Shown here: positions 17,588 to 44,956 of the stretch, one piece after another
How the letters are laid out: every line of letters begins with the position of its first letter
How positions within the stretch are numbered: the stretch's first letter is position 1
NCBI GenBank assembly: GCA_964412965.1
Contig: CAYPQU010000001.1
Location: 91,771-144,550, forward strand
Direction: 5' to 3'
Length of the DNA: 52,780 nt
Source of the DNA: an uncultured Candidatus Saccharibacteria bacterium
Lineage (GTDB): Bacteria; Patescibacteriota; Minisyncoccia; Phycocordibacterales; UBA9973
Notes under the pieces: model-generated
The model's input: the letters and a program-made list of their open reading frames with translations, nothing else
Databases searched by the model: none
What the model was told of the DNA's origin: nothing
Position numbers and translations under genes: made by a program

Positions 17588-18937
17588 TTACTTTAACATT
17601 ATTCTGATTTTTTCAATTTCTTGTAATAAAGATGGATCTGTTTTTAAATCCTCTTTAACTTTTAAATGGGAGTGAATTACAGTAGTATGGTCTCTGTCTC
17701 CTAACTTTTGTCCAATTAAAGGATAAGAAATATTAAAATCTTCTCTTAAAATATACATTGCAACCTGTCTAGCCCTAACAATTTCTTTTCTTCTTGTTTT
17801 ATCATATATAACACTCTCTGATAAATTGTAGTGATCAGCAATAACTTTAACTATATCAGCAATAGCAACTGATTTTTTAGGCTTAATATTATTCTTAATA
17901 AGATTTTTAACTTCAGTAATGGTTAAAGCCTTGTTTTTGAGTTGAGATTGACACAATACGGCATTTAAACTACCTTCTAGTTCTCTTATGTTACTATCAA
18001 GAGATTCTGCTAAGAAACTAATAATTTCAGGGTCTACAATACTGTTAGTTGATTCAAATTTTGCTTTAATAATTGCAATTCTAGATTCGTAATCTGGTTC
18101 TATTATTTGAACAGTCATTCCAGAAGCGAATCTTGATTGAAGTCTTTCTTCTAATCCTTGTATAAAATTAGGGTGTTTGTCTGAAGAAAAGATAATTTGT
18201 TTGTTGTTTTCATAAAGAGTATTAAAAAGATGAAATAGTTCTTCTTGTGTTTTGTCCATTTTTGAAATAAATTGAATGTCATCCATAATAAAAACATCAT
18301 ATTTTCGATACTTCTCTTTAAAAGCATTTGGATTTTTATTTTGAATAGAATTTATATAATCAATAGCAAATTTTTCTAAACTAACATAATAAACTCTTTT
18401 TTCTGGGTACTTAACTTTAATAGTATTACCAATTGATTGAATCATGTGTGTTTTTCCAAGACCAGTTCCGCCATAAACAAAGAAAGGGTTATAGTTTTTT
18501 CCAGGATCTTGAATTATTGCCTGAGCAACAGCATAAGCAAGTTCATTAAAAGGTCCTACGATAAAAGAATTAAAGGTATATTTGGGATTTAGATTGTCTT
18601 CCTTATTAATATACAAATCATTTAAAGGAAGTTCTTTGTTTAGATTCATTTTGTGGGCTACTTCTGTTTCCTTGCCCCCACTCCTCATTTCTTGTTTGTT
18701 GATAACATATTCAACTCCTCGAACATTTTCATTGTTACTAATTAGAGTTTTTAGTATTAGTTTGTGAAATTTATTATAAAGCCAGTCTTTAACAAATTCA
18801 TTAGGAACACCAATTTCGACTATTCCACCCTCTTCTTTTAAAATAGAGGTATTTTTAAACCAAGTCGTAAAATTGGCTTTAGAAATATTCATTTCTATTT
18901 CATTTAAACATTTATTCCAAAATTCTTTTTTATCCAT
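17588..18937 (-). CDS. dnaA: Chromosomal replication initiator DnaA
   Basis: LNPKYTFNSFIVG, YNPFFVYGGTGLGKTH, DDIQF, RLQSRF, NIRELEG, DRDHTTVIHS. Confidence 0.98.
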   Translation of the reverse strand: MDKKEFWNKCLNEIEMNISKANFTTWFKNTSILKEEGGIVEIGVPNEFVKDWLYNKFHKLILKTLISNNENVRGVEYVINKQEMRSGGKETEVAHKMNLNKELPLNDLYINKEDNLNPKYTFNSFIVGPFNELAYAVAQAIIQDPGKNYNPFFVYGGTGLGKTHMIQSIGNTIKVKYPEKRVYYVSLEKFAIDYINSIQNKNPNAFKEKYRKYDVFIMDDIQFISKMDKTQEELFHLFNTLYENNKQIIFSSDKHPNFIQGLEERLQSRFASGMTVQIIEPDYESRIAIIKAKFESTNSIVDPEIISFLAESLDSNIRELEGSLNAVLCQSQLKNKALTITEVKNLIKNNIKPKKSVAIADIVKVIADHYNLSESVIYDKTRRKEIVRARQVAMYILREDFNISYPLIGQKLGDRDHTTVIHSHLKVKEDLKTDPSLLQEIEKIRIMLK

Positions 18938-40811: not shown

Positions 40812-40850
40812 AAACAAAACTCCTCCGACTGTGTCGAAGGAGTTTTGTTT
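40812..40850. terminator. Intrinsic terminator after the 100-aa acidic ORF
   Basis: AAACAAAACTCCT...AGGAGTTTTGTTT stem. Confidence 0.8.
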
Positions 40851-41151
40851 ATTCGGCGATTATAGTATCTTCGCTAGCTTCTTTTTCTTCGTTCGCTATG
40901 TTTTCAGATTCTTCCAGCATTAATTTTTCAAAATCAATTTCGGCTTCTTTGTCTGCTTCGTCTAACTCTTCTAAGCCTCGATTAATTTCATCTATGTTTT
41001 GATTTATTTCAGCATCTTTTTGGGTTATTTCTTTTTCAAAATCACCTGCAATGTTTTCTACATCTGCGCTAATACTCTTTGCTTCGTTGACCAGAGCTTC
41101 AATGTCGGCGATTAACTCGTCTTCGTTTTTTATTTTATCTTCATCGTTCAT
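40849..41151 (-). CDS. Hypothetical acidic coiled-coil protein
   Basis: 100 aa, D/E-rich heptads; ATGA overlap with the upstream gene. Confidence 0.65.
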   Translation of the reverse strand: MNDEDKIKNEDELIADIEALVNEAKSISADVENIAGDFEKEITQKDAEINQNIDEINRGLEELDEADKEAEIDFEKLMLEESENIANEEKEASEDTIIAE

Positions 41152-42605
41152 TTTGTTTCTATAAATTTATTTATAATTTTTCCATACATAGACTTTTCTA
41201 CTTTTCTGACTTTGTAGTATTGTTTTACGATTCTTACAAAATTTTCTTTTGTCATTTGATTTTTCGGAGGCATTCTTGTTGCTCGAATTATTTCTTCTGG
41301 TGGAATCATTAAGAATTCAGAGCTCTGTCTAACCTTTCCTTGCTCGTCTGTTACATGCTCTGAATTTTCAACAACTAGAATATTCCATTTTTCTGTTAGA
41401 TTTTCAAAACTTTCCATACCCTTATATACGATTTCAGAATTATTTTCTGAATCACTATAACCATATTGTTTTTCATATATGTCATTTCCCGGCTCACGTG
41501 GGTGACCTTCTGTTTCTTCGGTTCCTTTCCATTCATCAGCATATTTTCTTTCTTTTAACCCAAAATCGATTGGTCGATTATTTTTAACTCTAATGAAATT
41601 ATTTTTCTTATTCCTGTAAGGTTCAGCTTTTCTATTAACCTTAGCTATTTTTGCGTTGATCTCTTTCCTTCTGTTTGCTATTTTAGCTTGTTCTAATTGT
41701 ATCCCAGTATAAATATTATTAATCTGGTCGTTCAGTGCTTTTACGGAGTCGTTTTTTCTGATTTGTTTGTCTGAATAACCAGCTTTCATGTAGGCGGCTT
41801 CTATCTTAGCTCTAGTTTCTTCAATTTTTTTGACTTTAGCCTTTTGTTCATCTAGTCTAACTTCTGATGACATACAAAGAAGTTCGATTTCATTTCTTTG
41901 ATCTTCTAACATACCAAGCCTGCCCTCGATTGGAGAAAGTTTCTTCTCGTAATGAGTGATAAGCCTGTCTGCGATGGCATCTCTTTTGTTGGCAAAAAGT
42001 TTTATTCGATTTTCTCGATCCTCAATTCTTCCTTGCAGTTTATCCATTTTCTTTTCATTTTTAGTGATTTGATTTTCTACTCTCTTTTCTGCTCGAAGGT
42101 TGGATGCTACGCCGGGCAACCCCATTTCTTCTAATATTGATGAAGCTTTGGAAATTTCAGACTTAACATTTTCAAGAACATTGTTTTGGGATCCGAATGA
42201 ATCCATCTTGTCTTTGAGACGAGCAGCCTTTCCCTCTTTTTTGTCCATCCAAAATTGATTGTAGGCGATTTCCATTTTTCCAACAACCTTGTTTAGTCCA
42301 GGCGTCATATAAATTCCTTCGTAAGCATTAGACATTATTTCTTTTGCTCCACTTGAAATTTTGCCCCATAGACTTTTGTTGGGGCTCTCTATTGTTGGAG
42401 TAATTCTTTCGGGCTCCAATGAGGCTCGGTTTATGTTTTCGGGGGCGTTGTTTGTGGTGTTTGTTGTTTCCATATTATTTTGATTATTATTTATGTCGAC
42501 ATCTTCTGCGAAAACCATTAAATCAAATTTGGGCCAAAGGTGTTTGGCTGGTTCTGATTTTCCTTTTTGAGAGTTGTTTTTTTGTATCCCTTTAATTTTT
42601 TTCAT
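41148..42605 (-). CDS. Hypothetical long coiled-coil protein
   Basis: 485-aa ORF with ~250 aa of K/E/R heptads; alternative start at 42473; consensus promoter upstream. Confidence 0.7.
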   Translation of the reverse strand: MKKIKGIQKNNSQKGKSEPAKHLWPKFDLMVFAEDVDINNNQNNMETTNTTNNAPENINRASLEPERITPTIESPNKSLWGKISSGAKEIMSNAYEGIYMTPGLNKVVGKMEIAYNQFWMDKKEGKAARLKDKMDSFGSQNNVLENVKSEISKASSILEEMGLPGVASNLRAEKRVENQITKNEKKMDKLQGRIEDRENRIKLFANKRDAIADRLITHYEKKLSPIEGRLGMLEDQRNEIELLCMSSEVRLDEQKAKVKKIEETRAKIEAAYMKAGYSDKQIRKNDSVKALNDQINNIYTGIQLEQAKIANRRKEINAKIAKVNRKAEPYRNKKNNFIRVKNNRPIDFGLKERKYADEWKGTEETEGHPREPGNDIYEKQYGYSDSENNSEIVYKGMESFENLTEKWNILVVENSEHVTDEQGKVRQSSEFLMIPPEEIIRATRMPPKNQMTKENFVRIVKQYYKVRKVEKSMYGKIINKFIETK

Positions 42606-42673
42606 TTTTTATTAGTACCATTAGCCCCTTTATATTAAAACAAACATTTAATAATTTGTTTACTTATATTTAT

Positions 42674-42703
42674 ATTATATCACATTATTGCTTATATTGT
42701 CAA
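42674..42703 (-). promoter_or_regulatory. Consensus sigma70 promoter for the coiled-coil gene pair
   Basis: TTGACA-18 nt-TATAAT with extended TG. Confidence 0.7.
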
Positions 42704-42711
42704 TATATAAA

Positions 42712-42743
42712 AATAGCGCTAACTCGGTTGAGCTAACGCTATT
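42712..42743 (-). terminator. Terminator of the LysM lipoprotein gene
   Basis: AATAGCGTTAGCTC-AACC-GAGTTAGCGCTATT on the minus strand followed by T-run. Confidence 0.7.
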
Positions 42744-42765
42744 AATTTATTCGTGAGAAATTCGA

Positions 42766-43434
42766 TTATCTACGAACGGAAAGGCTTGTTCTGCCGTTCG
42801 CGTCCCGATTAAAAGTTGTTTCTCCAAACCCTCTAGAGGTTAGACTAAAACCTCCGTCGGGGCATGATTGATAATCCATGCTTGCCGGCCTTCCCACCAT
42901 ATAGAATGGCTCACAGCAATGATCTATTGAGTGTAGACCACATGGACGACACTGTCTGTGATATGACGACAATCCTACTAATCCAAATAGGAAGAACAGG
43001 ACTACTACTGATCCTACAGCAATCAACAGCCATCCCCACCATGGCACACCTACTGTTTCGGTGGTTGTGGTAACGTGGGTCTCTTCCGAAATGAAGGTTG
43101 GTGTTACCACCTGCCCCCTTATTCTGATTTGTTCGCCGGGATAGATAAGTACTATCCATTTCTCTCGTCCTTGGTCGTAATAAATACGGCTGGGCTCGTT
43201 GAGAAATGGATTTTCAGCGACGATATCACGCCACTGAGTTCCTGTGCCATATGCCTCATCTGAGTAACCCCAGATGGTGTCCCCTTTAACCACTTTTTTG
43301 AGAACGAATCCTTCGGATCCAATCTCTTTAACTGTTGTTTTCACAACAGTTGTGGTCTTAGTGTCCTTGTTTTGGCACGAAGCCATAAGGACAATAGAAA
43401 AGATGACCAAAAAGAAAGAAATGATATTTTTCAT
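42766..43434 (-). CDS. LysM-domain lipoprotein-like protein with TM and Cys-rich tail
   Basis: Lipobox LMASC at C20; VVKGDTIWGYS..AYG.G..WRDIVAENP LysM pattern; TM; CRPC..CC..C tail. Confidence 0.7.
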   Translation of the reverse strand: MKNIISFFLVIFSIVLMASCQNKDTKTTTVVKTTVKEIGSEGFVLKKVVKGDTIWGYSDEAYGTGTQWRDIVAENPFLNEPSRIYYDQGREKWIVLIYPGEQIRIRGQVVTPTFISEETHVTTTTETVGVPWWGWLLIAVGSVVVLFFLFGLVGLSSYHRQCRPCGLHSIDHCCEPFYMVGRPASMDYQSCPDGGFSLTSRGFGETTFNRDANGRTSLSVRR

Positions 43435-43498
43435 TTCTACTTGTGTTCAGTATTGCCCCCCTGTCCCCGGTTTAAATTTTTAACTAATCTTAATAAAA

Positions 43499-43527
43499 AT
43501 TGTATCACAATCAAGCTCAAAAGTCAA
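43499..43527 (-). promoter_or_regulatory. Sigma70 promoter for the LysM lipoprotein gene
   Basis: TTGACT-17 nt-TACAAT with extended TG. Confidence 0.65.
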
Positions 43528-43574
43528 GACCTATGCCCATATTATTACTTTCCTTTATCCTGTGTATAACTCGA

Positions 43575-43603
43575 TTGACTTAAATCTCCTTCTGGGCTAC
43601 CCT
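43575..43603 (+). promoter_or_regulatory. Candidate promoter for the LysM-M23 gene (long leader)
   Basis: TTGACT-17 nt-TACCCT (weak -10). Confidence 0.4.
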
Positions 43604-43960
43604 TAAATAGTAGGGTTCTTAGATGAGCCCTAATTTGTGCCGAAATCTAGAAATAGCCTTATTTTTTATTGGGCTTTCCGAAAGATTGTAACTTTTACAC
43701 AATAAACACTCAGACTTCAGCTTTCGCTTTGGCGGTCGGACTAGAAGTTCCTTTGTGGAGGTGTGGATGTGTAATATATTTATTTTATAGAAAACCAAAC
43801 TACAAAAGCAGAAGAGGGTTCATATTCTTCAAAAAGCCCCTTTGCTAAAATAGCCTTATCTAATAAGTCTTTAACCACAAAGGCTTGGTTCTTTTTTGCC
43901 ATTATTTTTGCTTTTACCAGCACCCCAGGCGTAGCCAGTGCTGGTCTTTTTTCTAATTTA

Positions 43961-44956
43961 TTGGGCGATTCGACCAATAAAGCAGAAGGATCTTCTGTCG
44001 CAACCGGAGAAACAGGATTTGTTCACAACTCGCAAACAATGCCTTTATTGGAAACACTTTCTATTAATCCTGATACAAAAAATATTTCAATCGATGAAGA
44101 TATCATAATTATTCAAGATGATTCTTTTATATATAACAACGCCCCTATTGATATGGGTATTTCATACGAGAAGAGTTCAATCTCTGACAAGATGTATGTT
44201 TATACTGTTCAAAAAGGAGATACTCTTTCTGAGATAGCCGAACTTTTTGATATTTCTACAAATACTATCCGTTGGGAAAACAAAATTTCAGGAGAAAAAA
44301 TATCAGTTGGTCAAAAATTAAATATTTTGCCGGTTACAGGTGTTAGACACACTGTTCAAAAAGGGGATACTATAGTTAAGATAGCTAATAAGTACGAAGC
44401 AGAATCAGAAGATATTTATATCTTTAATGATTTAACCAAAGAAAGCACTCTTAAGATTGGGGATATAGTGTTCGTGCCTAACGGTATTATTAAGCCTCAA
44501 GTGTCTGTTTCATCCGCTAAGACTTCTAGTTCTTCCTCAACTAAATCATCAAACACTAAAGCAGAAAGTGGATATTACATAAGACCTGTTTCTGGTATTG
44601 TTTCCTCTCCTTACGGTTCTCGAAAAGGTGGATTCCACTACGGAATAGATATTGCCAATAAAAGAGGCACACCTATCAAAGCAGCAGCTTCAGGGGTAGT
44701 GGTAAAAATTGTCACTGGCTGTAAAGAGGGTAATTCTAGTTGTGGAGGAAGATATGGTAATTATATAGCTGTCCAACATGCCAATGGAACAAAAACAATT
44801 TACGCACACTTGAATACAGTAGGAGTATCTTACGGTCAAAATGTTTCTCAAGGAGAAACTATTGGAACACTTGGAAACACAGGAAGGTCTACTGGTCCAC
44901 ACTTGCACTTTGAAATTGAAAATGCTAATGGATCAAAGATGCGTCCTCCATTTTAA
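43961..44956 (+). CDS. 2x LysM plus M23 metallopeptidase (peptidoglycan endopeptidase); true start probably upstream of the TTG
   Basis: YTVQKGDTLSEIA and HTVQKGDTIVKIA LysM; HYGIDI (HxxxD), GYGN-like YGNY, STGPHLHFE (HxH). Frame is open from 43775 and encodes a signal peptide before 43961. Confidence 0.9.
   Translation: MGDSTNKAEGSSVATGETGFVHNSQTMPLLETLSINPDTKNISIDEDIIIIQDDSFIYNNAPIDMGISYEKSSISDKMYVYTVQKGDTLSEIAELFDISTNTIRWENKISGEKISVGQKLNILPVTGVRHTVQKGDTIVKIANKYEAESEDIYIFNDLTKESTLKIGDIVFVPNGIIKPQVSVSSAKTSSSSSTKSSNTKAESGYYIRPVSGIVSSPYGSRKGGFHYGIDIANKRGTPIKAAASGVVVKIVTGCKEGNSSCGGRYGNYIAVQHANGTKTIYAHLNTVGVSYGQNVSQGETIGTLGNTGRSTGPHLHFEIENANGSKMRPPF

What the first reader, a model, noticed from the sequence alone, without database searches (positions are those of the whole stretch)
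43594..43762. Long structured 5' leader upstream of the LysM-M23 hydrolase (riboswitch-like)
Seen: successive helices GGGCT/AGCCC enclosing ACCCT/AGGGT; GCCGA pairing with TTGGC; AATCT/AGATT enclosing GAAA.AGCCT/GGGCT.TTC; and ACTTC/GAAGT ending just before GGAGGT, the only strong SD I noticed in the window. Established: cell-wall hydrolase genes are common riboswitch targets (c-di-AMP ydaO) and orphan motifs named M23 and lysM-TM7 exist. Inference: an undescribed cis-regulatory RNA controlling a peptidoglycan hydrolase. Only fragments (UGCCGAA, CAGCU) resemble ydaO.
Basis: partly seen in the sequence, partly recalled or inferred. Interest (0 to 1): 0.65.

Follow-up and report, generated by a model that had tools for sequence, protein, structure and literature searches.

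The report
New folded leader before M23 hydrolase
A roughly 175-base folded RNA leader that is in no RNA family catalogue sits in front of a cell-wall-cutting enzyme gene in many ultrasmall (Paceibacteria) bacteria and always accompanies an unusual AUA/AUU/AUC start codon, so it probably controls how that enzyme is translated.

Summary
The flagged stretch is real and conserved. Window 43611-43786 (+) is the 5' leader of a LysM-LysM-M23 peptidase mRNA in a Paceibacteria (CPR) genome from wastewater.

**Structure.** In 25 non-identical loci the leader keeps seven helices. 91% of cells are paired, against 37-50% for slid controls; 28 of 42 pairs show double changes; 0 of 500 shuffles reach this. 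Six loci not used to build the model score 119-173 bits.

**Catalogue.** Rfam 15 has no match, including ydaO, M23 and lysM-TM7.

- Two are confirmed (P2, P4).
- Two have their upstream arms in the promoter (-10 TACCCT); comparison supports a different hairpin P1 instead.
- Two are not conserved.
- GGAGG is a helix strand, not a ribosome site: 1 of 38 window genes has one.

**Transcript.** An RNA-run contig starts at 43613, matching the predicted start.

**Start codon.** The ORF has no ATG/GTG/TTG before its membrane segment. It starts at a conserved AUH codon (AUA 43787), 12 nt after helix P3.

**Short variants.** Variants lacking the 3' junction domain, at four or more places in the protein tree, all have AUG.

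**Reading.** This is most likely a cis-acting controller of translation initiation. The ligand or partner is unknown, and no function was tested.

The parts
43561..43569 (-). DnaA-box-like element (TTATACACA = consensus TTATNCACA), 5 nt upstream of the -35 box
   Evidence: Conserved at a fixed distance in the 15 loci found by protein search, with one mismatch in L060. The consensus match is exact in the window. dnaA is in the window at 17588-18937. Binding was not tested.
43575..43580 (+). -35 box TTGACT
   Evidence: Invariant in all 27 aligned loci. The same TGTGGATAAC-N-TTGACT arrangement precedes TATAAT-like -10 boxes in other CPR-like contigs.
43598..43603 (+). -10 box TACCCT, 17-nt spacer
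   Evidence: T1, A2 and T6 are invariant, and positions 3-4 vary (TAACCT, TACTCT). The RNA-run contig starts 10 nt downstream.
43611..43786 (+). Whole leader RNA, from the predicted transcript start (about 43610-43613) to the base before the start codon
   Evidence: The covariance model R1 scores the window at 138.8 bits, E = 1.6e-20, and gives one hit only in the window. The X24 RNA contig spans 43613-43856.
43611..43632 (+). P1, 5'-terminal hairpin UAGGGUUC / GAGCCCUA
   Evidence: 8 of 9 model pairs show changes on both sides. It is present in the window's minimum-energy fold.
43655..43675 (+). P2 hairpin AGCCU / GGGCU with a conserved U-rich loop
   Evidence: 87% of cells are paired, and one pair shows UA to CG changes. 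The helix is mostly invariant.
43681..43692 (+). Conserved single-stranded element A (family consensus AYGAUUGUAAC)
   Evidence: Nearly invariant columns. It is complementary to UGCGGUCGU (90% paired), but without variation that could test the pairing.
43695..43701 (+). P3 5' strand UUACACA
   Evidence: It pairs with 43768-43774. 7 of 7 pairs show double changes, and 95% of cells are paired.
43706..43710 (+). P3b 5' strand
   Evidence: It pairs with 43760-43764. 5 of 5 pairs show double changes.
43714..43748 (+). P4 (ACUUCAG / CUaGAAGU) enclosing P5 (CGC/GCG, 43725-34) and the invariant internal loop GUCGKA (43735-40)
   Evidence: P4 is 94% paired with 3 pairs showing double changes. P5 is 99% paired with one compensated CAC/GUG case. 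GCGGUCG is invariant.
43749..43759 (+).
   Evidence: The closing pair is UA:8, CG:6, AU:4 across the family.
43760..43774 (+). 3' strands of P3b (43760-64) and P3 (UGUGUAA, 43768-74)
   Evidence: The window's AUG 43767 uORF and GUG-UAA 'start-stop' lie inside this strand, and their frame is not conserved.
43787..43789 (+). Proposed start codon AUA (family: ATA, ATT or ATC)
   Evidence: - From this codon to the conserved Lys-Ile codons there are 0 stops in 404 in-frame codons. The other two frames have 34 and 41.
- An in-frame stop lies 1-10 codons upstream in 23 of 25 loci, and directly one codon upstream in L136 and L182.
- 10 of the 23 long-leader loci have no ATG/GTG/TTG between the upstream in-frame stop and the conserved Lys-Ile codons ahead of the membrane segment.
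- The sequence is confirmed in DNA runs of other studies and in RNA contigs.
43787..44956 (+). LysM-LysM-M23 peptidase ORF, with an N-terminal tail, a membrane/signal segment, and the motifs HxxxD (FHYGID) and HxH (HLH)
   Evidence: Pfam Peptidase_M23 at 2.5e-31 and two LysM domains at 1.3e-20. The motifs were read from the translation.

Best explanation
Window 43611-43786 is a conserved cis-acting leader RNA of the LysM-M23 peptidoglycan hydrolase mRNA. I think it governs translation initiation at a weak, near-cognate AUA start codon (43787).

**Shown**
- A sigma-70-type promoter (TTGACT, 17 nt, TACCCT) lies upstream, with a DnaA-box-like element in front of it.
- The transcript begins at about 43611 with hairpin P1, followed by hairpin P2.
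- Next comes a 3' junction domain. Long-range helices P3 and P3b enclose P4/P5 and P6, and the unpaired segments AYGAUUGUAAC and GCGGUCGKACU are nearly invariant.
- P3 ends 12 nt before the start codon, and the stretch between them is A/U-rich and unpaired.
- There is no terminator and no usable Shine-Dalgarno site.

**Inferred**
- The folded 3' domain sets how often ribosomes start at AUH. It could do this in two ways. It could sense a ligand or partner through the conserved junction and change access to the start region, as a riboswitch does. Or it could act as a landing platform that makes the weak codon usable.
- The result is low, controlled synthesis of a potentially lethal wall hydrolase.
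- The ligand or partner is unknown.
For: - **Family.** Model R1 finds the leader directly 5' of the M23 gene in 25 non-identical loci. Six of them were not used to build it (119-173 bits). It finds none in 64 M23 loci of other phyla.
- **Covariation.** 91.3% of cells are paired, against 37-50% for slid controls. 28 of 42 pairs show double changes, and 0 of 500 shuffles reach this. RNAalifold recovers all seven helices on its own.
- **Strand.** 145 G-U cells, and 91.3% paired on the + strand against 79.8% on the - strand.
- **Transcription.** RNA-run contigs cover 43613-43975. RNA-labelled runs show none upstream of 43613, while DNA runs continue upstream.
- **No terminator** on the + strand.
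- **No Shine-Dalgarno use.** 1 of 38 genes has one.
- **Start codon.** 0 stops in 404 in-frame codons after AUH, against 34 and 41 in the other frames. Spacer lengths differ by whole codons. In-frame stops lie just upstream.
- **Link between domain and codon.** All long leaders have AUH. All six short leaders that lack the 3' domain have AUG, at four or more places in the protein tree.
Against: - No function was tested. The evidence is comparative, plus low-depth assembled RNA contigs whose ends are not mapped 5' ends.
- Alternative pairings that a switch would need are complementary but show no covariation:
  - element A with GCGGUCGU;
  - element A with the P3 5' strand;
  - 5' GUAGG with CUUAU at the start.
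- A more distant M23 clade has an AUU start with a different, shorter leader. The 3' domain is therefore not the only context in which AUH is used.
- Initiation at AUA/AUU/AUC is inferred from reading frames, not from protein data.
Confidence: 0.6

Rival explanations
1. The leader is a classical small-molecule riboswitch. The conserved junction of the 3' domain would bind a metabolite or second messenger linked to the cell wall or to growth. Binding would shift the fold so that the start region is hidden or exposed. This is a special case of the best explanation.
For: - Size and complexity: seven helices and a multi-helix junction with nearly invariant unpaired nucleotides.
- The gene class is one that c-di-AMP riboswitches and the orphan motifs M23 and lysM-* often precede (PMC5737381).
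- Candidate competing pairings exist.
Against: - None of the competing pairings has covariation.
- No second gene class carries the motif, so nothing hints at a ligand.
- Short variants keep only P1 and P2 and still precede an intact gene.
Confidence: 0.3
2. The leader is a ribosome landing or initiation platform. The folded 3' domain would dock the small ribosomal subunit and place a non-AUG codon in the P site. The lineage has largely given up Shine-Dalgarno pairing, so the fold would act as a constitutive or growth-coupled enhancer, not a sensor.
For: - The spacing between the end of P3 and AUH is fixed and short.
- AUH is invariant in all long leaders.
- Loss of the domain always goes with a change to AUG, at four or more places in the tree.
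- The genome lacks SD sites, and many genes look leaderless.
Against: - The T2 clade uses AUU with another, shorter leader.
- No bacterial precedent is known to me (own knowledge).
- There is no evidence of ribosome contact.
- There is no tRNA-like feature.
Confidence: 0.2
3. The leader is a target of a protein or small RNA, or an mRNA-stabilising 5' structure with no sensing role. The 5'-terminal hairpin P1 would protect the transcript from 5'-end-dependent decay, and the remainder would bind a regulator.
For: - P1 begins at the predicted first bases of the transcript.
- P1 and P2 are kept even in the short variants.
Against: A stabiliser does not need about 110 further nucleotides with five covarying helices and invariant loops. 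No partner is identifiable.
Confidence: 0.12
4. The leader is a divergent member of the ydaO c-di-AMP riboswitch, or of the M23 or lysM-TM7 motifs.
For: It shares the downstream gene class, and short words such as UGCCGAA occur.
Against: These families give no match at E <= 10 in the window region. None appears at gathering score in the window, and none at E <= 1 in eight relatives.
Confidence: 0.04
5. The leader is a mobile repeat (MITE-like, bounded by the inverted repeats that form P3), a separate small-RNA gene, or a chance set of hairpins.
For: - The 3' domain is bounded by a 7-bp inverted repeat and is absent in some relatives.
- The single-sequence fold is not significant.
Against: - There is one copy in the window, and none elsewhere in about 0.9 Mb of loci searched.
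- The position is orthologous in all loci.
- Five helices inside the domain show compensatory changes.
- RNA contigs run from leader into ORF.
Confidence: 0.03

Closest known systems
[quoted passage not shown] 2017, PMC5737381)
   Same: They are orphan structured motifs in the presumed 5' UTRs of M23 peptidase or LysM genes. One of them comes from a CPR phylum (TM7). They are candidate cis-regulators with no known ligand, and c-di-AMP did not bind them.
   Different: No covariance-model match to any Rfam 15 family. This RNA is larger (about 175 nt, seven helices), occurs in Paceibacteria-type genomes, and is tied to a non-AUG start codon.
ydaO/yuaA c-di-AMP riboswitch (Rfam RF00379)
   Same: It is a large leader RNA that often precedes cell-wall hydrolase genes (own knowledge; PMC5737381).
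   Different: No match even at E <= 10. I did not see a pseudo-two-fold symmetric architecture. Ligand binding is untestable here.
infC (IF3) AUU start-codon autoregulation in E. coli (own knowledge; compare PMC5499595 and PMC9723500 on IF3 and AUU/AUA starts)
   Same: A conserved near-cognate AUU/AUA start keeps translation low and makes it depend on the state of the initiation machinery.
   Different: Here the gene is a secreted wall hydrolase, not an initiation factor. The codon is preceded by a large structured RNA and no SD site. Dependence on IF3 is untested.
Structured initiation elements (ribosome standby sites; viral intergenic IRES that start at non-AUG codons) (own knowledge)
   Same: A compact multi-helix RNA lies immediately 5' of a non-AUG first codon.
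   Different: There is no evidence of ribosome docking and no similarity in sequence or fold. It is named only as a functional analogy for the boldest reading.

Membership tests
ydaO/yuaA c-di-AMP riboswitch (RF00379) | Match to the family covariance model | tested here: not met
   No hit at gathering score in the window, at E <= 10 in 43350-44050, or at E <= 1 in 8 relatives.
ydaO/yuaA c-di-AMP riboswitch (RF00379) | Binds c-di-AMP | not testable with these tools
   This needs in-line probing or equilibrium dialysis.
M23 / lysM-TM7 / lysM-Actino / lysM-Prevotella motifs (Weinberg 2017) | Match to the Rfam covariance models of these motifs. That they are in Rfam 15 is my recollection, not checked. 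| tested here: not met
   Searches list no such family.
M23 / lysM-TM7 / lysM-Actino / lysM-Prevotella motifs (Weinberg 2017) | Lies in the 5' UTR of an M23 or LysM gene | tested here: met
   Pfam gives LysM x2 plus Peptidase_M23. The leader lies directly upstream in 25 loci.
Riboswitch (generic) | Conserved structured domain with covariation, in the 5' UTR of the controlled gene | tested here: met
   Searches give the covariation. Searches give the promoter and the RNA contigs.
Riboswitch (generic) | Expression platform with mutually exclusive pairings | tested here: inconclusive
   Three candidate pairings were counted:
- element A with GCGGUCGU: 90% paired, no variation;
- element A with the P3 5' strand: 79% paired, not above shuffles;
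- 5' GUAGG with CUUAU at the start: the five core pairs 92-100% paired, not above shuffles.
Riboswitch (generic) | Direct binding of a small molecule | not testable with these tools
   No assay is possible, and the motif precedes only one gene class, so nothing points to a ligand.
Sigma-70-type promoter | Conserved -35 and -10 hexamers at 16-18 nt spacing, with the transcript start 6-9 nt downstream | tested here: met
   TTGACT, 17 nt, TACCCT, with T1, A2 and T6 invariant in 27 loci. The RNA contig begins at 43613, but this is a contig end, not a mapped 5' end.
DnaA box | 9-mer matching TTATNCACA | tested here: met
   TTATACACA at 43561-69, conserved in position across loci found by protein search.
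DnaA box | Bound by DnaA | not testable with these tools
   dnaA is present in the window, but binding needs a gel-shift or footprint assay.
MITE / dispersed repeat | Several copies per genome at non-orthologous sites | tested here: not met
   There is one hit in the 52.8-kb window and none outside the M23 leader in the loci searched. The rest of the genome could not be searched.
Non-canonical (AUH) initiation codon | The ORF is open and coding from the codon, is closed just upstream, and has no canonical alternative | tested here: met
   AUG replaces it two codons upstream only in the short-leader variants.
Non-canonical (AUH) initiation codon | The protein N-terminus maps to this codon | not testable with these tools
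   This needs N-terminal proteomics or toeprinting.

The most novel reading that the evidence does not exclude
The 3' junction domain (P3/P3b/P4/P5/P6) may be a bacterial internal initiation element. It would be a folded RNA that recruits the ribosome and lets it start at a non-AUG codon (AUA/AUU/AUC) in a lineage that has largely abandoned Shine-Dalgarno pairing. A ligand or the state of the initiation machinery might tune it. On this reading, synthesis of a division-type wall hydrolase would be coupled to translation capacity through the weak start codon. It would also be coupled to replication through the DnaA-box promoter.
Probability: 0.15. Interest if true: 0.9.

Novelty: new variant of a known kind. 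Interest (0 to 1): 0.68.

Why it matters
Large, well-supported structured RNAs without a catalogue entry are rare. Almost nothing is known about gene control in Patescibacteria/CPR, which are uncultured, ultrasmall and host-dependent.

This leader offers three things:
- **A new orphan regulatory RNA class** with a clear target, a peptidoglycan hydrolase. It can be synthesised and probed directly.
- **A natural experiment.** The 3' domain was lost repeatedly, each time with a switch from AUH to AUG. This links an RNA fold to the use of a near-cognate start codon, and so makes initiation without a Shine-Dalgarno site or AUG testable in CPR bacteria.
- **A correction for gene callers.** They currently truncate these M23 genes inside their membrane segment.

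Tried and rejected
- **Rfam.** Searches at gathering and at permissive thresholds, in the window and in 8 relatives, gave nothing relevant.
- **Single-sequence folding.** Not significant on the + strand. The - strand scored z = -2.05, but G-U counts reject that strand.
AAUCU/AGAUU and GCCGA/UUGGC are not conserved.
- **Switch or pseudoknot candidates.** Element A with GCGGUCGU, element A with the P3 5' strand, and 5' GUAGG with the start region are all complementary but without covariation.
- **Energy comparison.** Comparing the consensus fold with an alternative fold across 25 members was uninformative, partly because the model misregisters P1 in some rows.
- **Other ways to start the ORF.** I considered a programmed frameshift from the window's AUG 43767 uORF, a GUG-UAA start-stop, stop-codon readthrough and termination-reinitiation. 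I rejected them because those codons sit in the P3 3' strand and their frame relative to the ORF is not conserved.
- **Assembly error or RNA editing at the start.** DNA contigs from other studies and RNA contigs show no change at 43767-43857.
- **tRNA- or tmRNA-like element.** None found.
- **MITE or repeat.** Rejected.
- **Attenuation inferred from RNA contig coverage (43613-43975).** Not used as evidence. DNA depth is also higher over the leader (X7), which I attribute to related strains sharing the conserved leader, so coverage there may not reflect RNA level.

Full report
**Setting.** The window is an AT-rich (about 34% G+C) stretch of an ultrasmall CPR bacterium. The nearest loci are labelled Paceibacterota/Paceibacteria (some Saccharibacteria, Nomurabacteria, Moranbacteria). 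DNA runs that hold it come from wastewater and sludge. The finding lies in the 526-nt gap between a divergent gene (42766-43434, -) and a gene with two LysM domains and a Peptidase_M23 domain. The translation keeps the HxxxD and HxH metal-site motifs, so the protein looks like an active LytM-type endopeptidase. In relatives the order is UvrD(-) | M23(+) | ComM-like(-). The window has three extra genes between UvrD and M23.

**Checking the observation.** The stretch alone does not fold better than shuffled copies (z = -1.09), and Rfam has nothing there. What decides the matter is comparison. Fifteen loci found by protein similarity show nucleotide-level conservation of the whole region, from a promoter to the ORF. 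A metagenome scan with a promoter pattern added twelve more.

**The RNA.** I built a covariance model on 22 sequences (199 positions, 42 pairs).
- It finds the element once in the window (43605-43800, 138.8 bits).
- It finds the element directly 5' of the M23 gene in 25 non-identical loci. Six of these, fetched afterwards, were not used to build the model (119-173 bits).
- It finds nothing in 64 M23 loci from Bacillota, Actinomycetota, Bacteroidota, cyanobacteria and others.
- On the 25-row alignment 91.3% of cells form standard pairs, against 37-50% when partners are slid by 1-3 columns.
- 28 of 42 pairs have changes on both sides, and none of 500 shuffles reaches any of the five measures.
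- RNAalifold on the same alignment predicts all seven helices by itself, and already found the 3' domain on a plain MAFFT alignment.
- The alignment was fitted to the model, which favours it, but the slid controls and the MAFFT result argue that the signal is real.
- G-U pairs (145 cells) give 91.3% pairing on the + strand against 79.8% on the - strand.

**Helices in window coordinates** (six of the seven are in the window's own minimum-energy fold):

| Helix | Coordinates |
|---|---|
| P1 | 43611-18 / 43625-32 |
| P2 | 43655-59 / 43671-75 |
| P3 | 43695-701 / 43768-74 |
| P3b | 43706-10 / 43760-64 |
| P4 | 43714-20 / 43741-48 |
| P5 | 43725-27 / 43732-34 |
| P6 | 43749-51 / 43757-59 |

The most conserved nucleotides are unpaired: AYGAUUGUAAC (43681-92) and GCGGUCGKACU (43732-42).

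- The outer GGGCU/AGCCC and ACCCU/AGGGU helices use bases that belong to the promoter. The family supports P1 instead.
- AAUCU/AGAUU and GCCGA/UUGGC are not conserved.
- GGAGG (43757-61) is the 3' strand of P6/P3b and covaries.
- Only 1 of 38 window genes has an SD-like word upstream, and many have a -10 box 6-9 nt before the ATG, which looks leaderless. GGAGG is therefore not a ribosome site.

**Promoter and transcript.** TTGACT (43575-80), a 17-nt spacer and TACCCT (43598-603) are conserved in all 27 aligned loci. T1, A2 and T6 of the -10 box are invariant. This predicts a transcript start at about 43610-12, the first bases of P1. In six RNA-labelled metatranscriptome runs, assembled contigs cover 43613-43975 and none lies upstream. 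One contig from a close relative begins at 43613 and runs to 43856, so leader and ORF start are on one RNA. DNA runs continue upstream. These are low-depth contigs, not mapped 5' ends. No + strand terminator is predicted.

**The start codon.**
- The M23 frame is open from the stop at 43772-74. It encodes a tail and a membrane/signal segment but has no ATG, GTG or TTG until 43961, inside the mature part.
- DNA contigs of three other studies and RNA contigs show no indel or change in 43767-43857. It is therefore neither an assembly error nor editing.
- Across the family, a codon ATA, ATT or ATC (window 43787) is invariant 12-17 nt after P3.
- From that codon to the conserved Lys-Ile codons there are 0 stops in 404 in-frame codons, against 34 and 41 in the other frames. 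The spacer is 22 codons in most loci, with 21 and 10 as the only other lengths.
- In-frame stops lie 1-10 codons upstream in 23 of 25 loci, and one codon upstream in L136 and L182.
- Ten of the 23 long-leader loci have no canonical start between the upstream in-frame stop and the conserved Lys-Ile codons ahead of the membrane segment.
- The window's uORF (AUG 43767) and GUG-UAA pair are by-products of the P3 strand GUGUAA, and their frame is not conserved.
- I conclude that the gene starts at AUH. This is an inference from frames, not from protein data.

**Domain and codon go together.** Six loci have a short leader that keeps P1 and P2 but lacks the 3' junction domain. All six have AUG (AAUUAUG), aligned with AGG two codons before the AUH of long leaders. 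On a tree of the M23 proteins, well-supported branches force at least four changes for the short type. All 26 long-leader rows have AUH. Recombination of leaders between lineages could lower the number of events, but at least two different deletion architectures exist. A more distant M23 clade was found only through the promoter pattern. It has another, shorter leader, the same promoter layout and the same GGCUU-AUU start context, again without a canonical start in two of four loci. AUH use is thus older than the long leader.

**Mechanism.**
- *Shown:* a conserved, transcribed, structured 5' UTR; no terminator; no SD site; an unpaired A/U-rich start region next to P3; and the domain-codon correlation.
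- *Inferred:* control at translation initiation.
- I cannot tell whether the domain senses something (riboswitch or protein target) or acts as a landing platform for a weak codon. Three candidate competing pairings are complementary in nearly all members but do not vary enough to test.

**Comparison with known families.** The nearest relatives in kind are the orphan motifs M23 and lysM-TM7/-Actino/-Prevotella. They precede the same gene classes and did not bind c-di-AMP (PMC5737381). The c-di-AMP riboswitch is the other obvious comparison. No Rfam model matches. Full-text searches found no description of such an RNA in Patescibacteria. That is a lead that agrees, not independent proof.

Noticed in passing
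window 43561-43569 (and the same position in L001-L015, L060): A consensus DnaA box (TTATNCACA) sits 5 nt upstream of the -35 box of the M23 promoter and is conserved in position across the family. The same TGTGGATAAC-N3-TTGACT layout precedes ordinary TATAAT-type promoters in other AT-rich (32-40% G+C), possibly CPR-type, metagenome contigs. dnaA itself is at 17588-18937 (-), with a perfect box at 17573-81.
   Followed up: partly
window 43775-43963: The M23 ORF has no ATG/GTG/TTG before its membrane/signal segment. Gene callers therefore start relatives inside the hydrophobic segment (for example P0002, P0006, P0008). The conserved AUA/AUU/AUC at 43787 is the likely start.
   Followed up: yes
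whole window, upstream of 38 ORFs: Only 1 of 38 genes has an SD-like word upstream. Many have a TATAAT-like box ending 6-9 nt before the ATG, which suggests leaderless mRNAs.
   Followed up: partly
L115:1100-1430, L156:963-1290, L158 (- strand), L170 (- strand): A more distant clade of M23 genes has a different, shorter leader with a conserved AUGGCUUAACAGRGCCAU hairpin. It shares the promoter layout and the GGCUU-AUU start context, and in L158 and L170 no canonical start occurs before the membrane segment.
   Followed up: partly
L004, L135, L178, L210, L204, L012 (leader regions): These are natural deletion variants of the leader. They keep P1 and P2, lack the 3' junction domain, and have AUG instead of AUH. 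They sit at four or more places in the M23 protein tree.
   Followed up: yes
window 40849-43434: Three genes lie between UvrD and the M23 gene: a 100-aa ORF, a 485-aa ORF and a 222-aa ORF, none with a Pfam hit. In four relatives (L203, L204, L206, L211) UvrD lies next to the M23 gene. The three genes may therefore be an insertion specific to this lineage.
   Followed up: no
L008:142-236 and L189:206-306 (- strand): There are sub-threshold Rfam hits to n00280, 'C. difficile sRNA included into helicase gene' (55 and 38.6 bits, gathering score 65.2). They lie upstream of the M23 leader, where L203, L204, L206 and L211 carry UvrD. I did not check what is encoded there; it is probably conserved coding sequence rather than an RNA.
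   Followed up: no
window 43983-43997: A hairpin CAGAAGGAUCUUCUG lies inside the M23 ORF, near where most RNA-run contigs end. It has no U-tract on the + strand and scores only as a - strand terminator-like site.
   Followed up: no
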